Shown: positions 30,427 to 37,510 of the stretch, in pieces
Numbering within the stretch: the stretch's first letter is position 1
Layout of the letters: each line of letters starts with the position of its first letter
Assembly: GCF_016026235.1 (NCBI RefSeq)
Contig: NZ_CP065613.1
DNA: 64,000 bases
DNA from: Escherichia coli
Lineage (GTDB): Bacteria; Pseudomonadota; Gammaproteobacteria; Enterobacterales; Enterobacteriaceae
Direction: 5' to 3' (one strand)
Notes under the pieces: generated by a model
Database searches by the model: none
Seen by the model: the letters and a program-made list of their open reading frames with translations, nothing else
Told to the model about the DNA's origin: nothing
Position numbers and translations under genes: made by a program

Positions 30427-32724
30427 TTACCAGGTCACATTGATACCAACTACACCCTGTAGCGGATTCTCAATGTCGTCACCTTTGGTGTAGTCAAGGC
30501 TTGCATATGCTCCCATGTTTTTGGTGATATCAGCCTGTACACCTGCACCCACGCGGAATGCTGCACCGTCAATGCTGGCATTGACAGACTCATCACCCAG
30601 ACGGACTTTGTTGCCATCAGAGAATTCGTTCAGTGCGGCCAGATTCAGATAAGGTTTAACGGTCGCGTTGCCCACAGCGAAGTCATAACCCACGCGCGTA
30701 CCGGCCTCACCCAGCACAGAGTTATAGCTGTCAGAATGAACGTTCACGCCGTTGAGTTGATAATCCACACCTTCCAGCGTCAGCGCAGACAGTTTGGCAT
30801 ATGGCTGAATAAACAGGCCATTACCGTCTTTCCATGTGTAACCGCCTTTAACCATCGCACCGAAACCATTGGTGTTAAAGTCAGCTTTGATGGTACCGCC
30901 ACCATTCATCAGGCGAACATCTGCCGTGTTGCTGTAGTGACCAAACTGTGCAGCAGTATCAATGAAGATACCGTTGTTATACTGGCGGCTCAGGTAAGCG
31001 TGGAAGCTGTAACCTTCAGTGTCGCCTTTGCTCTGCATGGTGGTCATGTCACCTTTCGCAGAAGACATCGCCACACCGGCCAGCCAGCTACCATCTTCAG
31101 TCATGAAGCGGGTATCACCACCCAGCATTACACCGTTTACATCCAGGTCATAGGATGCATTTCCCGCGGTGGTATGTTTCTGTTTACCGCCAAAGTACTG
31201 AATCCATACGCCGCCCTTGTCATTTTCGCTCAGACGGACAGCATCCTGACGGGCTGAGAGCGTGTCAGCCTGCAGATTAGCAACGTTAGCCGGAGCTGCT
31301 GCCATTGCCTGAATCACGGAGCTGGCGTTGGATGCTTTATGCGTGTTTTTTACGAAATAAAAGTTACCATCAGCTCCCTGTGTCAGGTCATATTGATACA
31401 GACCACCTTCCGTTGTGCCTGTGGCTTTTAGAGTGCTGTCTTTGCCGGTAGAAATAAATGCCGTTTGTTCATTGATAAGATCCAATGAACCCGCACTGTA
31501 AACACGCAAGTCACCGCTCGCTTTACCGCTGATATCCAGAGTGTTTTCAGAAGAGGCATCAACAATCAGAGTGCCGTTTTGAGAAGCAAACGTGCCAGTA
31601 TTGACTGTAGCCTTCGTGATATTAACCGTACTGTCTTTTACTGCCAGAGCATCAACAGTTGAGGATCCCGTAACATTCCAGACAGACTCGTTTTGCAGAG
31701 ATACACTGGCATTTCCTGCCCCTGAAACTTTGCCTTTCCAGACTGAACTATCGGAAAGATTTATATCCAGATTACTACCCGCTTTATCGCCGCTATTGAA
31801 AGTATAAGCATTACCTTCCCAGTAAGAGCGGGCAACGTTCATGTTTACATTTGTTGTGGTAGCGGCTGAATTCTCGCTTTCAGAAAGGGCCAGGACATCA
31901 GAGTAGATGGTTGAATCAGCAACAGACAAATTTAAATTTTGCGTTGCTGAACCTGTGCCTTGTGCCGAAGCAGAGGCATAAATTGTTTGTTTATTATTAG
32001 CCGCCCCAATTACTGAGCCATCCTTAATATTCAGGTTGACTGTATGAATTCCCGTCTTATTCCCGGCAGTAACTATTGTTTCAATCCGACCATTAATAAT
32101 ATTTGAGCCAGCAAGGGTAATGTTGTCGGTTGCATCACCTTCAAAACTATTCAATAAGCTACCCTTTTGAGCAAAAATTGCCGTGGAGGCGTTGCTGGAA
32201 CTCTTATTACCTTGAGCATTTATGGTTGTGCCATTAAGCGTGACATTATTTCCCTTGGCCCCTTCCAGAGATATCCCTGTCGCACTACCTTTTTCATTTT
32301 TTGCAACGAAATTACCGCCATTAACAACAACATCGCCAGTTGAATCAATGACCATTGCAGTCCGGACATAGGTGCCTTCACCTTGAGCTGTGATGGTGGA
32401 GTCTGTAGCATTAATCACAACATTTTTGTTACCACTAACTTTTACACCTTCAACGAAATCTTGGTTTACCGTTGATGCGGCGGTAATATCATGACCACCA
32501 AAAGTAACATTAAGGTCTTTATCTGCATCTGACGTTTCAATTGTTACGGCTGTAATCTTTTTATCACCGTTAATAACAACATCTTGATCCAGAGTTGTCT
32601 TATCTTTATCCAATGTAACCGGTGTAGTTGATACCGCGTTATCAGCAGCGAATGCTGGTGCAGAAAGAGCCATAACAATAGCTGTCGCTAATGCGCTGCG
32701 GTAAAATGCCTTATTGTTTTTCAT
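30427..32724 (-). CDS. Autotransporter adhesin, UpaB-like (about 765 aa from MKNNKAF start; ORF extends to 32757)
   Basis: Signal peptide MKNNKAFYRSALATAIVMALSAPAFA; repetitive Gly/Asn/Thr-rich passenger; C-terminal beta-barrel ending ...GINVTW; GGAG RBS before ATG 32724. Confidence 0.85.
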   Translation of the reverse strand: MKNNKAFYRSALATAIVMALSAPAFAADNAVSTTPVTLDKDKTTLDQDVVINGDKKITAVTIETSDADKDLNVTFGGHDITAASTVNQDFVEGVKVSGNKNVVINATDSTITAQGEGTYVRTAMVIDSTGDVVVNGGNFVAKNEKGSATGISLEGAKGNNVTLNGTTINAQGNKSSSNASTAIFAQKGSLLNSFEGDATDNITLAGSNIINGRIETIVTAGNKTGIHTVNLNIKDGSVIGAANNKQTIYASASAQGTGSATQNLNLSVADSTIYSDVLALSESENSAATTTNVNMNVARSYWEGNAYTFNSGDKAGSNLDINLSDSSVWKGKVSGAGNASVSLQNESVWNVTGSSTVDALAVKDSTVNITKATVNTGTFASQNGTLIVDASSENTLDISGKASGDLRVYSAGSLDLINEQTAFISTGKDSTLKATGTTEGGLYQYDLTQGADGNFYFVKNTHKASNASSVIQAMAAAPANVANLQADTLSARQDAVRLSENDKGGVWIQYFGGKQKHTTAGNASYDLDVNGVMLGGDTRFMTEDGSWLAGVAMSSAKGDMTTMQSKGDTEGYSFHAYLSRQYNNGIFIDTAAQFGHYSNTADVRLMNGGGTIKADFNTNGFGAMVKGGYTWKDGNGLFIQPYAKLSALTLEGVDYQLNGVNVHSDSYNSVLGEAGTRVGYDFAVGNATVKPYLNLAALNEFSDGNKVRLGDESVNASIDGAAFRVGAGVQADITKNMGAYASLDYTKGDDIENPLQGVVGINVTW

Positions 32725-32765
32725 GAAGAAATTCTCCATTCTGGTAACTAATTTCAATTTCCCAC

Positions 32766-33527
32766 TTATTTATATTTATGCAGAGATAAAGCCTGCGTCC
32801 CTGCATTTACCACCACGGAATACCTGTTGGTATTTCCGTTTTCACGCAATGTCATGGCATTCGTTTTTTCCAATGCATTTCCATCACCGTGAAATTTATT
32901 GCTGCTCAGCAGCAGGGCTTCCCGCAATGACATGCTGTCCGGTATTCCCCAACGCTTTTTTAGCGACTGCTCGGCAAGCCATATCTGTCTTATCCCCGTT
33001 TTGAGAAACTGCGCACTGTATTCCCAGCTGTGTCCGGCAAGAAGCAACGACAACACCTTCTTTTGCTTTTCCGGGAAGCGTTCTGACATGACGATTGTCT
33101 TTGTGCGGTTATTCACCTCTTTCATAAAGACAGAGTAACTGTCCATAACTGGCAAAATTTCTGCATGTTTCAGCCCTGAAAACCCACCAGAGGTATTTGC
33201 AATACTGATGACATGCTCTACTGACATTCCTGGTTTCAGTAACCTCAGGTTTTTGAGAACGCCAGAAATACTCACATCCGGTGGCAGAAAAAAGGGCGCG
33301 ACGCACAACACCACCACGAATGAGTGATCCCGATAAAATCGGAACCACATTTCAGCGCATTCGGCAGGTCGCCCTGCCGATATCACGACACTCTGTGGCC
33401 TGTGCCGCAATTTATTGCGTAACTCCTCTTCTGTTTTGATGCAGGTAACATTGCCGACAGAACCGGTTGATAGAGCTGCGAACTGCGCTGGTACAATTCC
33501 TGAGGGACAGAAAAGAACGAAACGCAT
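32766..33527 (-). CDS. LuxR-family (FixJ/NarL-type HTH) transcriptional regulator, 253 aa
   Basis: C-terminal region with LuxR-type HTH (KQKKVLSLLLAGHSWEYSAQFLKTGIRQIW); 41 bp upstream of autotransporter. Confidence 0.7.
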   Translation of the reverse strand: MRFVLFCPSGIVPAQFAALSTGSVGNVTCIKTEEELRNKLRHRPQSVVISAGRPAECAEMWFRFYRDHSFVVVLCVAPFFLPPDVSISGVLKNLRLLKPGMSVEHVISIANTSGGFSGLKHAEILPVMDSYSVFMKEVNNRTKTIVMSERFPEKQKKVLSLLLAGHSWEYSAQFLKTGIRQIWLAEQSLKKRWGIPDSMSLREALLLSSNKFHGDGNALEKTNAMTLRENGNTNRYSVVVNAGTQALSLHKYK

Positions 33528-35869: not shown

Positions 35870-36432
35870 TTAACGAGGCTTTTTTTTCCACACCCCTTTA
35901 AATCGAGCAGCATTACTGGCTGTGTATCTGACAGTATGCTGGATATTTCGATGACCCAGATAATCCTGGAGTAGTCGGGTATCGACACCATTGTCAGCCA
36001 GAGCAAAACCACAGGCATGACGTAACATATGAGGATGTGCTTTTACAGCTAATCCTGCACGTTTTCCAGCCTCACGAATGATAGAAAAAAATGTTGTCTG
36101 CTGATAGGGCGGCGTTTCCGGGAGAGAAAAAGCCAGTCTCCTTCAACTCCGTTTTCAATTAACTTCCTCTGCTTAAGCCACGACTTGATCAAATTATATT
36201 CATCAGGAAGAAGAGGATGTGTCGTCGAGAAACCATTTTTAATACGCCGAATATTAAGTTGTTTTCCTGATGCATCAATATCGGATAAACGTAAATCAAG
36301 AAGTTCACTGGCCCTAAAACCGTGAATGAAAGCCATCATAATTAGACAGCGATTTCTTTCAGGAAAGGACATGCTCTGGGCTGCATCCATCAGCCTGTAG
36401 ACTTCATCCTGTGTGAGATATTTTCTCGTCAT
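35870..36432 (-). pseudogene. FimB/FimE-family tyrosine site-specific recombinase with 1-bp frameshift in an A7 (coding-strand T7) tract
   Basis: N-frame MTRKYLTQDEVYRLM...FIHGFRASE...WLFLSRKRRPISRQHFF stops at 36049; next frame continues SIIREAGKRAGLAVKAHPHMLRHACGFALADNGVDTRLLQDYLGHRNIQHTVRYTASNAARFKGVWKKKPR to stop at 35870; tract at 36085..36091. Confidence 0.8.
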
Positions 36433-37510
36433 ACGCCACCGTGTACAGTTGTAAAAAAAAGAGGCACACCCAGATAAGTATGCCTGCCATCAGAACGTTA
36501 TCGATGTAATCTCATTATTTCATTAATAAGATTTTTTGAATAGTAGTTCTACGCAACAGATTAAATATGAACTATTTATTGTGCAGCTTTTCTACAAATC
36601 ATTTTTAATGCGTGTTTTTATCTACATTGATGTGAAAAAATAAATATAAAAGCTATGAGCGACAGGTCGTGTGGGATGTGTGTTACGTCTAATGTTTTAG
36701 TTGTTTTTATTAGTTTGAGATATTTGACATTATTTCTTGCGAGAACGCTTTATTGTGTATCTAATTGATTTTTCTTTTGTTTTTGGTTGGTGAAATTATA
36801 AGGTAGAAGGTGAGATTAGTTTAATATCAATGATATGAATTTATAAATACATATTATTGCAAGGTGTTCTTTAATTTTCTGGTCGTGAGTAAACCATTGT
36901 TAATGAACTCTGCTAATAAATTAAAAATGTTCTTTTGAATAGCTTTTGTTTTTTTGTAAACCTCAGTTTGTTTATTTTGCATTCGTTTGCTGGAGAGTAT
37001 TTCAACAATTTTTATTTTTCGCATAAACTTATTAACAACTTTTTATTATCAATTGGAAATCAATGTAAACTAAAATGTTAGCGAAGCGATAATCTTGTGC
37101 TAAAAAATATTTAAGCATGATGATTAATTAAAGAAGAGTAAAAATAAATCACTGCTAATAAATTATACGAATCGTGTTTAAAGCTCCACGTTGTTTTGGT
37201 CTGACTTATTTTTGTCCTCGTTTCAAGAACCCTTTTCGTATATGCTAACCGTGAGCGGGAGTGAACAAGTCACCATAGCCAGGAACACTAGCGGCGTAAT
37301 TCTTAAGCTGAGTGGCATTTCACCTGCGGTTTATCAGTGCATTCATAGCACCTTCATCAGCCAGATTGAACGAGTCCGCTTAGAATTTGCTGGCGAGGTT
37401 GTCACTATGAAGCATGAGAGTTACCTCAGTGTTTATATAAGGATTCAGCCCCCCTCTCTGGAACGGTAACTCTCAATCTGATCGGTTCCTGCGTTAGTTC
37501 ACATCACGAC

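What the first reader, a model, noticed from the sequence alone, without database searches (positions are those of the whole stretch)
30427..37510. Recombinase - LuxR - LuxR - autotransporter module between ykgH and betA: candidate phase-variation (invertible promoter) system
Seen: on the minus strand, in order, a FimB/FimE-family tyrosine recombinase gene (36432..35870), 58 bp later a LuxR-family regulator (35811..33681, split by IS2), 153 bp later a second LuxR-family regulator (33527..32766), 41 bp later an UpaB-like autotransporter (32724..30427), all preceded by a 1.07-kb AT-rich ORF-poor leader (36433..37510). Established: small FimB/FimE-family recombinases in E. coli invert short promoter switches (fimS for type 1 pili; the hyxR switch via FimX; ipuS via IpuA/IpbA, which controls a LuxR-type regulator and the autotransporter UpaE). 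Inference: this locus has the same gene logic and may be, or have been, an invertible-promoter switch controlling LuxR regulators and a surface adhesin. Here both the recombinase and the first LuxR gene carry lesions, so any switch may be locked or served in trans by FimB/FimE. I could not identify the inverted repeats by eye.
Basis: partly seen in the sequence, partly recalled or inferred. Interest (0 to 1): 0.75.

Follow-up and report, generated by a model that had tools for sequence, protein, structure and literature searches.

The report
Dead remnant of known hyx switch
This is the already described E. coli FimX/IpbA-hyxS-hyxRAB phase-variation island (PAI-X), but in this genome the invertible DNA has been cleanly cut out, the recombinase is frameshifted and the regulator gene is split by IS2, so nothing can switch any more.

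Summary
The locus is not a new candidate. It is the published PAI-X island between ykgH and betA: ipbA (= fimX), hyxR, hyxA and hyxB (= upaB). In intact genomes FimX inverts the 278-bp promoter element hyxS, which has 16-bp inverted repeats and lies between ipbA and hyxR.

In this window hyxS is missing. The ipbA-hyxR gap is 58 bp instead of 329 bp. A precise 271-bp deletion has left one hybrid site, CCTTCTGATTCAAAATGTCAGG, at 35842-35857, and the window has no partner copy. That is why no inverted repeats could be seen.

Two further lesions are present:
- ipbA has lost one T from a T8 run.
- IS2 splits hyxR, with target duplication GCAAT.

hyxA and hyxB are intact. hyxA is not detectably LuxR-like.

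Of 1891 complete E. coli genomes that carry the locus:
- 1784 have hyxS in one orientation.
- 17 have it inverted.
- 87 carry the same precise deletion, in several unrelated backgrounds. The two junction types differ only at the centre base of TGA(T/A)TCA.

This recurrent loss of the switch is the only possibly new point. It could come from FimX-mediated excision or from replication slippage, and I could not tell which. Verdict: a known system, decayed here, of low interest.

The parts
30354..37405 (-). PAI-X island (ipbA/fimX, hyxR, hyxA, hyxB plus an AT-rich arm), inserted between ykgH and betA. It includes a secondary IS2.
   Evidence: Comparison with the empty site in AR_0149 (L022): the window matches up to 30353 and again from 37406. 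RefSeq annotation of orthologous loci.
30427..32724 (-). hyxB = upaB, a type Va autotransporter, intact (765 aa)
   Evidence: Same length as RefSeq hyxB. TIGR01414 beta-barrel, E=4e-69. hyxB = upaB per PMC3789825.
32766..33527 (-). hyxA, intact (253 aa), function unknown; not detectably LuxR-family
   Evidence: RefSeq 'protein HyxA'. No Pfam, NCBIfam or PDB hit. STM0718 of Salmonella is 39% identical per PMC11294581.
33681..33971 (-). hyxR 3' fragment (C-terminal 97 codons)
   Evidence: Aligns to L002 hyxR up to the IS2 insertion point.
33972..35302 (+). IS2 (1331 bp) inserted in hyxR; 5-bp target duplication GCAAT at 33967-33971 and 35303-35307
   Evidence: 99.7% identical to IS2 copies in many genomes. 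Ends and duplication read directly from the sequence.
35303..35811 (-). hyxR 5' fragment. Joined to the 3' fragment it gives an intact 264-aa LuxR/GerE-type regulator.
   Evidence: Reconstruction and translation. Pfam GerE E=3.9e-6.
35842..35857 (-). Scar of the excised hyxS switch: a single hybrid recombination site TGATTCAAAATGTCAG (context CCTTCTGATTCAAAATGTCAGGTTTTG). The 271 bp that carry the invertible promoter element are missing.
   Evidence: The ipbA stop to hyxR ATG gap is 58 bp here and 329 bp in intact loci. The element in the reference is 278 bp including 16-bp inverted repeats. This is the only copy of the core in the window.
35870..36432 (-). ipbA (= fimX = hbiF) tyrosine DNA invertase pseudogene; T8 to T7 frameshift at 36085-36091, stop after residue 127
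   Evidence: Alignment to ES5 and AH21F008 ipbA. The truncated product hits the NCBIfam 'tyrosine-type DNA invertase' model at E=9e-36 but scores below its cut-off. The same lesion is annotated in FDAARGOS_943.
36433..37405 (.). AT-rich non-coding arm of the island upstream of ipbA (presumably the ipbA promoter region); no hyxS-like repeats
   Evidence: GC 0.25-0.34. Absent from the empty-site genome. Only weak AT-rich inverted matches. No Rfam hit.

Best explanation
The module is a decayed copy of the known E. coli PAI-X phase-variation island. In intact genomes the tyrosine invertase FimX/IpbA flips hyxS. This is a 278-bp promoter-bearing element bounded by 16-bp inverted repeats (TGATTCAAAATGTCAG), and it lies between the ipbA stop codon and the hyxR start codon. 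Flipping it switches transcription of hyxR-hyxA-hyxB(upaB) on and off.

In this window three independent lesions have destroyed the system:
1. hyxS itself is gone. A precise 271-bp deletion joins the ipbA-proximal site to the outer arm of the hyxR-proximal site. In intact loci that second site is a perfect 33-bp palindrome. One hybrid site is left.
2. ipbA is frameshifted in a T8 run.
3. hyxR is interrupted by IS2.

So no inversion is possible, no HyxR is made, and only hyxA and hyxB/upaB remain as intact ORFs without their switchable promoter.

These points are shown: the identity of the locus, the three lesions, and the absence of a partner site.

How the 271 bp were lost is inferred. I slightly favour (about 0.5) excision by FimX itself. 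Each site reads arm-TGA(T/A)TCA-arm. In the inverted alignment the 7-bp centres match perfectly, which gives inversion. In the direct alignment they differ only at the central base, which would allow occasional excision. The mismatched heteroduplex would then segregate into junctions carrying T or A.

A further inference comes from published phenotypes, where low HyxR raises tolerance to nitrosative stress and survival in macrophages: this genome is fixed in a HyxR-null state.
For: Identity of the locus:
- Orthologous loci are annotated ipbA/hyxR/hyxA/hyxB at 96-98% identity in about 1500 genomes with at least 80% coverage of the query; the locus is detectable in 1891.
- The island sits between ykgH and betA.
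- The literature describes FimX inversion of hyxS with 16-bp inverted repeats, PAI-X = fimX + hyxRAB, and a hyxRAB operon (PMC6083910; PMC3789825; PMC6458436; PMC12922286; PMC11294581).

hyxS anatomy and inversion in nature:
- The element is 278 bp with a 246-bp interior.
- 1784 genomes have it in one orientation and 17 in the exact inverted configuration, for example APEC O18.
- The left site and the right palindrome are invariant across seven divergent non-deleted haplotypes, while the interior varies.

Deletion in the window:
- Searches show the deletion junction.
- No second core copy exists in the window, and there are no other credible inverted repeats.

Other lesions. The nearest genome, FDAARGOS_943, shares all three lesions.

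Recurrence of the same deletion:
- The T-type junction is in 18 genomes and the A-type in 69.
- 1784 + 17 + 18 + 69 = 1888 of the 1891 genomes that carry the locus.
- The deleted alleles lie in unrelated haplotypes. Each is close to a non-deleted relative.
- ST73 clone D and THO-006 have flanks essentially identical to those of non-deleted Nissle 1917, ABU 83972 and ATCC 25922.
- BCE049 (A-type deletion) differs by 1 base from AH21F008 (forward orientation) and by 2 from APEC O18 (inverted).
- AVS0223 (T-type) and SA186 (A-type) have identical 3.35-kb flanks. That is what one event with a central heteroduplex would leave.
- All deletion genomes examined outside the window's lineage have intact hyxR, hyxA and hyxB, and all but FCI1 have intact ipbA.
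Against: - Nothing contradicts the identity of the locus or the conclusion that the switch is dead.
- For FimX-mediated excision there is no direct evidence. The same product can arise from RecA-independent slippage between the 15/16-bp direct repeats 271 bp apart, helped by the flanking inverted repeats.
- If excision were easy, hyxS should have been lost from more than 4.6% of loci.
- The position of FimX cleavage within the 16-bp repeat is unknown to me.
- The primary hyxS paper (Bateman & Seed 2012) and the PAI-X survey (Bateman et al. 2013) were not available. I therefore cannot exclude that switch-less alleles were already described.
- Which orientation is ON could not be derived from sequence. 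The promoter scan was not above chance.
- The effect of the deletion on hyxRAB expression is untested. It could be promoterless, or read through from ipbA.
Confidence: 0.9

Rival explanations
1. The 271-bp loss of hyxS was made by replication slippage, not by the recombinase. This is RecA-independent misalignment between the direct repeats TGATTCAAAATGTCAG and TGAATCAAAATGTCAG. A hairpin formed by the 16- to 33-bp inverted repeats would promote it, as in the precise excision of transposons.
For: - The junction lies exactly within a 15/16-bp direct repeat, 12 bp of it perfect, that flanks inverted repeats.
- Such structures are classical deletion hotspots (established knowledge: Tn5/Tn10 precise excision).
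- The deletion is rare, 87 of 1891 genomes. That fits a low-rate mutational process.
- The 1002W03 variant shows that the centre base can change by ordinary mutation.
Against: - Both junction types recur. The T-type shows at least 5 events and the A-type at least 3.
- The A-type needs a crossover in the 3 bp to the left of the mismatch, or repair of a heteroduplex. Simple slippage on the 12-bp perfect core should mostly give the T-type (my reasoning, untested).
- Other direct repeats of 10-11 bp in the same region (D6 and D8) account for at most 3 of 1891 genomes.
Confidence: 0.4
2. One reading: a still-existing but unrecognised invertible promoter lies in 35800-37510 or 33528-33680. It is locked or is flipped in trans by FimB/FimE.
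For: - Gene order matches recombinase-switch-regulator cassettes.
- The AT-rich 1-kb region upstream of the recombinase has many weak inverted matches.
Against: - The real switch position is known, between ipbA and hyxR, and it is deleted here.
- There is only one copy of the core in the 64-kb window.
- The inverted matches in the AT-rich arm are 74-89% complementary, as expected from composition, and are unlike hyxS.
- Only FimX acts at hyxS (PMC6083910).
- Among 1891 genomes the only rearrangements at the locus are inversion or deletion of hyxS.
Confidence: 0.03
3. The short 58-bp ipbA-hyxR junction is the ancestral state, and hyxS is a later insertion in other strains.
For: The short allele has intact genes in most carriers.
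Against: - Short alleles are nested inside hyxS-bearing haplotypes with identical or nearly identical flanks, in ST73 and in the AH21F008/APEC O18 group.
- They occur on at least four divergent backgrounds.
- The Salmonella homologous cassette also carries a switch at this position (PMC11294581).
Confidence: 0.02

Closest known systems
FimX (IpbA/HbiF)-hyxS-hyxRAB locus of PAI-X in UPEC UTI89, CFT073 and ST131 (Bateman & Seed 2012, cited in PMC6083910, PMC6458436 and PMC3789825)
   Same: It is the same locus. It has the same chromosomal site (ykgH-betA), the same four genes at 96-98% nucleotide identity, and the same recombination-site sequence.
   Different: Here the 278-bp invertible element is deleted, ipbA is frameshifted and hyxR is split by IS2. 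The copy is a non-functional remnant.
Salmonella T1-antigen switch: STM0716 recombinase, a 269-bp invertible promoter, then STM0717/STM0718 and glycan genes (PMC11294581)
   Same: It is a homologous cassette. STM0716 is 72% identical to FimX and STM0718 is 39% identical to HyxA. The inverted repeats are reported as identical in sequence. The recombinase gene sits directly upstream of the switch.
   Different: The cargo is a polysaccharide locus, not an autotransporter. The Salmonella cassette is functional, and this window's copy is not.
ipuS switch with IpuA/IpuB, ipuR (LuxR-type) and the autotransporter upaE in CFT073 (PMC6083910)
   Same: The logic is the same: a Fim-family invertase, a short invertible promoter, a LuxR-type regulator and an autotransporter.
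   Different: It is a different island and a different locus. It has 7-bp repeats, and four recombinases act on it. It is not orthologous to this window's genes.
fimS with FimB/FimE (type 1 fimbriae)
   Same: It uses the same recombinase family and the same promoter-inversion principle. FimX can also act at fimS.
   Different: It has 9-bp repeats in a 314-bp element and needs IHF and Lrp. The hyxS half-sites show only limited similarity to fimS (PMC6083910).
Tyrosine-recombinase sites with a symmetric spacer (for example symmetric lox or FRT variants), which give both inversion and excision (my own knowledge, not tested here)
   Same: The hyxS sites have a nearly palindromic centre, TGA(T/A)TCA. 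Their direction rests on a single base pair, so both outcomes are conceivable.
   Different: No biochemical data exist for FimX cleavage positions, and excision by FimX has not been shown.

Membership tests
PAI-X / hyx locus (fimX-hyxS-hyxRAB) | Island inserted between ykgH and betA | tested here: met
   Empty-site comparison gives island limits 30354-37405. Orthologous loci have the same neighbours.
PAI-X / hyx locus (fimX-hyxS-hyxRAB) | The genes ipbA/fimX, hyxR, hyxA and hyxB in this order on one strand | tested here: met
   96-98% nucleotide identity to RefSeq-annotated loci. ipbA and hyxR are pseudogenes here.
PAI-X / hyx locus (fimX-hyxS-hyxRAB) | hyxS: an invertible element of about 278 bp with 16-bp inverted repeats between ipbA and hyxR | tested here: not met
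   271 bp are missing and a single hybrid site is left at 35842-35857. It is present in 1801 of 1891 other genomes.
Functional Fim-type invertible promoter switch | Two inverted recombination sites flanking a promoter | tested here: not met
   One core copy only in the 64-kb window. No credible inverted pair in 35300-37600.
Functional Fim-type invertible promoter switch | An intact cognate tyrosine recombinase with its catalytic residues | tested here: not met
   The T8 to T7 frameshift truncates the protein at residue 127, before the HxxR and Tyr residues. It scores below the NCBIfam cut-off.
Functional Fim-type invertible promoter switch | Both orientations observed in populations or genomes | tested here: met
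   Met for the family: 1784 forward and 17 inverted genomes with breakpoints in the 16-bp repeats. It cannot apply to this window, where the element is absent.
LuxR/GerE-type regulator | C-terminal LuxR-type helix-turn-helix (Pfam PF00196) in HyxR | tested here: met
   GerE E=3.9e-6 over residues 135-181 of the reconstructed HyxR.
LuxR/GerE-type regulator | C-terminal LuxR-type helix-turn-helix in the second protein (HyxA) | tested here: not met
   No Pfam hit at E<=10. No NCBIfam hit. No similarity to HyxR. The AlphaFold model was too poor to test the fold.
IS2 (IS3 family) | 1331-bp element, two overlapping transposase ORFs, 5-bp target duplication | tested here: met
   99.7% identity to annotated IS2 copies. 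ORFs at 34018-34428 and 34386-35291. Duplication GCAAT.
Type Va autotransporter (UpaB/HyxB) | C-terminal autotransporter beta-barrel and a full-length passenger | tested here: met
   TIGR01414 E=4e-69 over residues 366-765. Same length as RefSeq HyxB.

The most novel reading that the evidence does not exclude
The FimX/IpbA invertase occasionally excises its own switch instead of inverting it. The hyxR-proximal site is a perfect palindrome whose direction depends on one central base pair, which would permit this. On this reading the phase-variable hyxRAB operon is irreversibly fixed. The event has happened repeatedly in E. coli: 87 of 1891 locus-bearing complete genomes, at least 8 independent events, and T or A at the junction centre as a heteroduplex signature. 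The window carries one such scar. I found no description of this in the papers I could read.
Probability: 0.4. Interest if true: 0.5.

Novelty: already known. Interest (0 to 1): 0.25.

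Why it matters
For the finding as proposed, it matters little. The recombinase, LuxR and autotransporter module is the published FimX-hyxS-hyxRAB system. 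This genome holds a dead copy, as expected for an IS-laden lineage that is losing accessory loci.

Two points have modest value.

First, annotation pipelines and readers should recognise 'switch-less' hyx alleles. About 4.6% of loci look intact by gene content but cannot phase-vary. This affects the use of fimX/PAI-X as a UPEC marker, and it affects studies of HyxR, HyxA and UpaB expression.

Second, the two-base junction polymorphism would be notable if FimX makes the deletion. It would be a natural example of a promoter invertase that occasionally locks its own switch for good. It would also place the crossover region of a Fim-family site at the palindrome centre. The literature calls recognition of dissimilar repeats by these recombinases an open question (PMC6458436).

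Tried and rejected
- Searched the window for inverted repeats in 35300-37600 and for any second copy of the hyxS core with up to 3 mismatches. Nothing credible turned up, so I rejected the idea of a hidden switch.
- Ran a sigma-70 promoter and terminator scan of intact hyxS. Hits were not above the shuffled expectation, so I could not assign ON or OFF orientation or locate the promoter from sequence.
- Tested HyxA as a LuxR protein with Pfam, NCBIfam, BLASTP against HyxR, PDB sequences, a homologue search and AlphaFold. All were negative or uninformative. The homologue search returned only E. coli sequences and frameshifted fragments, so no useful alignment could be built.
- My first A-type 40-mer query also matched non-deleted genomes through a 30-bp exact stretch, so its counts were unusable. 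A shifted 40-mer solved this.
- Counting genomes with the ipbA T7 frameshift using a 40-mer gave no match. The likely cause is that BLAST's low-complexity filter masks the T run. Prevalence remains unknown beyond the loci I fetched.
- The primary papers PMC3809820 and PMC3749053 are not held.
- Rfam found nothing in the locus.
- I considered an assembly artefact for the deletion and rejected it. The same junction is present in 87 independent complete assemblies and in the window's nearest relative.

Full report
**1. What is in the window**

- a recombinase gene at 36432..35870
- a 58-bp gap
- a regulator gene at 35811..33681, interrupted by a mobile element
- a 153-bp gap
- a 253-aa ORF at 33527..32766
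- a 41-bp gap
- a 765-aa autotransporter at 32724..30427
- upstream of the recombinase, an AT-rich stretch (GC 0.25-0.34) that runs to betA

**2. Identity of the locus**

A megablast search against 5426 complete E. coli genomes shows the locus is common. RefSeq annotates it as ipbA ('also known as HbiF and FimX'), hyxR, hyxA and hyxB, between ykgH and betA.

This is PAI-X. The papers I could read say:
- FimX inverts a promoter element, hyxS, next to fimX and so controls hyxR. hyxS has 16-bp inverted repeats, and only FimX acts on it (PMC6083910; PMC6458436).
- PAI-X is fimX plus hyxRAB, and hyxB is upaB (PMC3789825).
- hyxRAB is treated as an operon (PMC12922286).
- A homologous cassette in Salmonella drives the phase-variable T1 antigen. 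It consists of the STM0716 recombinase, a 269-bp switch, and STM0717/0718 (PMC11294581).

Comparison with a genome that lacks the island puts its limits at 30354-37405. The AT-rich 'leader' is therefore island DNA.

**3. The switch is missing**

In intact loci the gap from the ipbA stop to the hyxR ATG is 329 bp. Read on the gene strand of the reference AH21F008:
- The ipbA-proximal site is ...GTACCTTC TGATTCA AAATGTCAG ATT...
- The hyxR-proximal site is a perfect 33-bp palindrome apart from its centre base: AAACCTGACATTT TGAATCA AAATGTCAGGTTT.
- The 16-bp inverted repeat is TGATTCAAAATGTCAG.
- The element is 278 bp including the repeats, with a 246-bp interior.

The window has only 58 bp here. 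Exactly 271 bp are absent, and the junction reads CCTTCTGATTCAAAATGTCAG|GTTTTGTAGC. The left site has been joined to the outer arm of the right palindrome through the directly repeated TCAAAATGTCAG. The 16-mer occurs once in the whole 64-kb window, at 35842-35857. No other credible inverted pair exists in 35300-37600.

**4. The other lesions**

- ipbA is 563 bp instead of 564. One T of a T8 run is lost (window 36085-36091), giving a stop after residue 127, before the C-terminal catalytic residues.
- IS2 (1331 bp, 33972-35302) sits in hyxR with a GCAAT target duplication. Removing it restores a 264-aa protein with a GerE/LuxR helix-turn-helix.
- hyxA and hyxB have the reference lengths.
- HyxA shows no LuxR signature by any sequence test. 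An AlphaFold model without an alignment was too poor to use. The 'second LuxR' label is therefore unconfirmed.

The closest genome at this locus is FDAARGOS_943, at 99.8% identity. It has the same three lesions, plus IS600/ISSfl3 insertions that removed hyxB. The window's flanks are at most 98.8% identical to any complete E. coli genome, so it comes from a divergent lineage. The IS2 in hyxR and the heavier IS load of its nearest relative at this locus fit decay of accessory loci.

**5. How the locus varies across E. coli**

I built queries that distinguish the alleles. Of 1891 genomes with the hyxR 5' flank:

| Allele | Genomes |
|---|---|
| hyxS in the reference orientation | 1784 |
| Exact inverted configuration (e.g. 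APEC O18) | 17 |
| Window's deletion junction, T at the centre of TGA-T-TCA | 18 |
| Same deletion with A at that position | 69 |
| Total accounted for | 1888 of 1891 |

Both orientations occur in nature with breakpoints in the 16-bp repeats, which agrees with the published switch.

The deletion is recurrent:
- Deleted alleles lie on at least four very different haplotypes.
- ST73 clone D and THO-006 have flanks essentially identical to those of non-deleted Nissle 1917, ABU 83972 and ATCC 25922.
- BCE049 (A-type) is 1 base from a forward allele and 2 bases from an inverted one.
- AVS0223 (T-type) and SA186 (A-type) have identical 3.35-kb flanks.
- Apart from the window's lineage and FCI1, the deletion genomes I examined keep all four genes intact.

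The switch loss therefore does not depend on the other decay seen here and may have come first.

**6. Mechanism of the deletion (inference)**

The two sites look like classical tyrosine-recombinase sites: two inverted arms around a 7-bp centre.
- In the inverted alignment the centres are identical (TGATTCA), which gives inversion.
- In the direct alignment they differ only at the middle base (TGATTCA against TGAATCA).

Occasional FimX recombination in the direct alignment would excise a 271-bp circle. It would leave a hybrid site with an A.A/T.T heteroduplex that segregates into T-type and A-type junctions. Both types are seen repeatedly: at least 5 T-type events and at least 3 A-type events. 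One identical haplotype carries both. The sites are invariant across divergent haplotypes while the interior varies.

The rival is replication slippage between the 15/16-bp direct repeats, stimulated by the inverted repeats. It gives the same product and I cannot exclude it from sequence alone. I put the recombinase route at about 0.5 and slippage at about 0.4. I found no description of switch-less hyx alleles in the papers I could read, but the two primary papers were not available.

**7. Consequences here**

The locus cannot phase-vary, HyxR is null, and hyxA/upaB have lost the switchable promoter. By the published phenotypes, HyxR represses hmpA and lowers nitrosative-stress tolerance and macrophage survival (PMC8777976; PMC3789825). 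That corresponds to a fixed low-HyxR state. Whether the state was selected is speculation.

**8. Verdict**

- Interest is low for the finding as proposed.
- The recurrent precise loss of hyxS, with its centre-base polymorphism, is a modest lead that can be tested.

Noticed in passing
window 36085-36091 (ipbA T-run); also L003, L021, L023: The same T8 to T7 frameshift in ipbA occurs in three unrelated haplotypes: the window/FDAARGOS_943 lineage; FCI1, whose siblings with identical flanks have T8; and O157:H7 H2495. The run is either a recurrent slippage hotspot, possibly an on/off tract for the recombinase itself, or a site of homopolymer sequencing error.
   Followed up: partly
L010 (AVS0223) vs L015 (SA186), junction at locus position ~3514: Two genomes have zero differences in 3.35 kb of flanks but carry the T-type and the A-type deletion junction respectively. 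This fits one excision event with a mismatched centre, or a later point change.
   Followed up: partly
L012 (1002W03), hyxR-proximal hyxS site: A non-deleted hyxS has T instead of A at the palindrome centre on the gene strand. Both sites then carry TGATTCA in direct orientation. It is the only such genome found, and its origin is unexplained. Its flanks are the closest non-deleted relatives of three deletion alleles.
   Followed up: partly
L001 (THO-010) ~6320-7650; also NZ_OZ546984 (H188) and NZ_CP028758 A16 (H129): Other genomes carry insertion sequences in or next to the switch. IS2 sits exactly inside the right palindrome in THO-010. IS1 lies between ipbA and hyxR in OZ546984. IS903B is present in A16. 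The switch region appears to be disrupted repeatedly.
   Followed up: no
L003 (FDAARGOS_943) 1-4900: The window's nearest relative has lost hyxB and the end of hyxA to IS600 and IS66-family (ISSfl3) elements. This looks like a later stage of the same decay and shows a Shigella/EIEC-like load of insertion sequences.
   Followed up: no
L023 (O157:H7 H2495): In O157:H7 the locus keeps hyxS, but ipbA is frameshifted and hyxR has an internal stop. The switch is probably inactive in that lineage as well.
   Followed up: no
L013 (APEC O18) ~2405: This genome has the inverted orientation and an extra G just before the A8 run near the 3' end of ipbA. It is annotated with a longer 612-bp ipbA. This may be real or a sequencing error.
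   Followed up: no
window 55569-55638 and 55662-55731 (minus strand): Two tandem matches to Rfam naRNA4 (RF02564, 78 bits each). They are the only Rfam hits in the 64-kb window.
   Followed up: no
window 1-25000 and 39001-64000: The flanking core genes (ecp, fdeC, rcl, ykg, bet, ehaA, yah) are collinear with E. coli. They are at most 98.0-98.8% identical to the best of 5426 complete genomes, so the source strain is a divergent lineage.
   Followed up: partly
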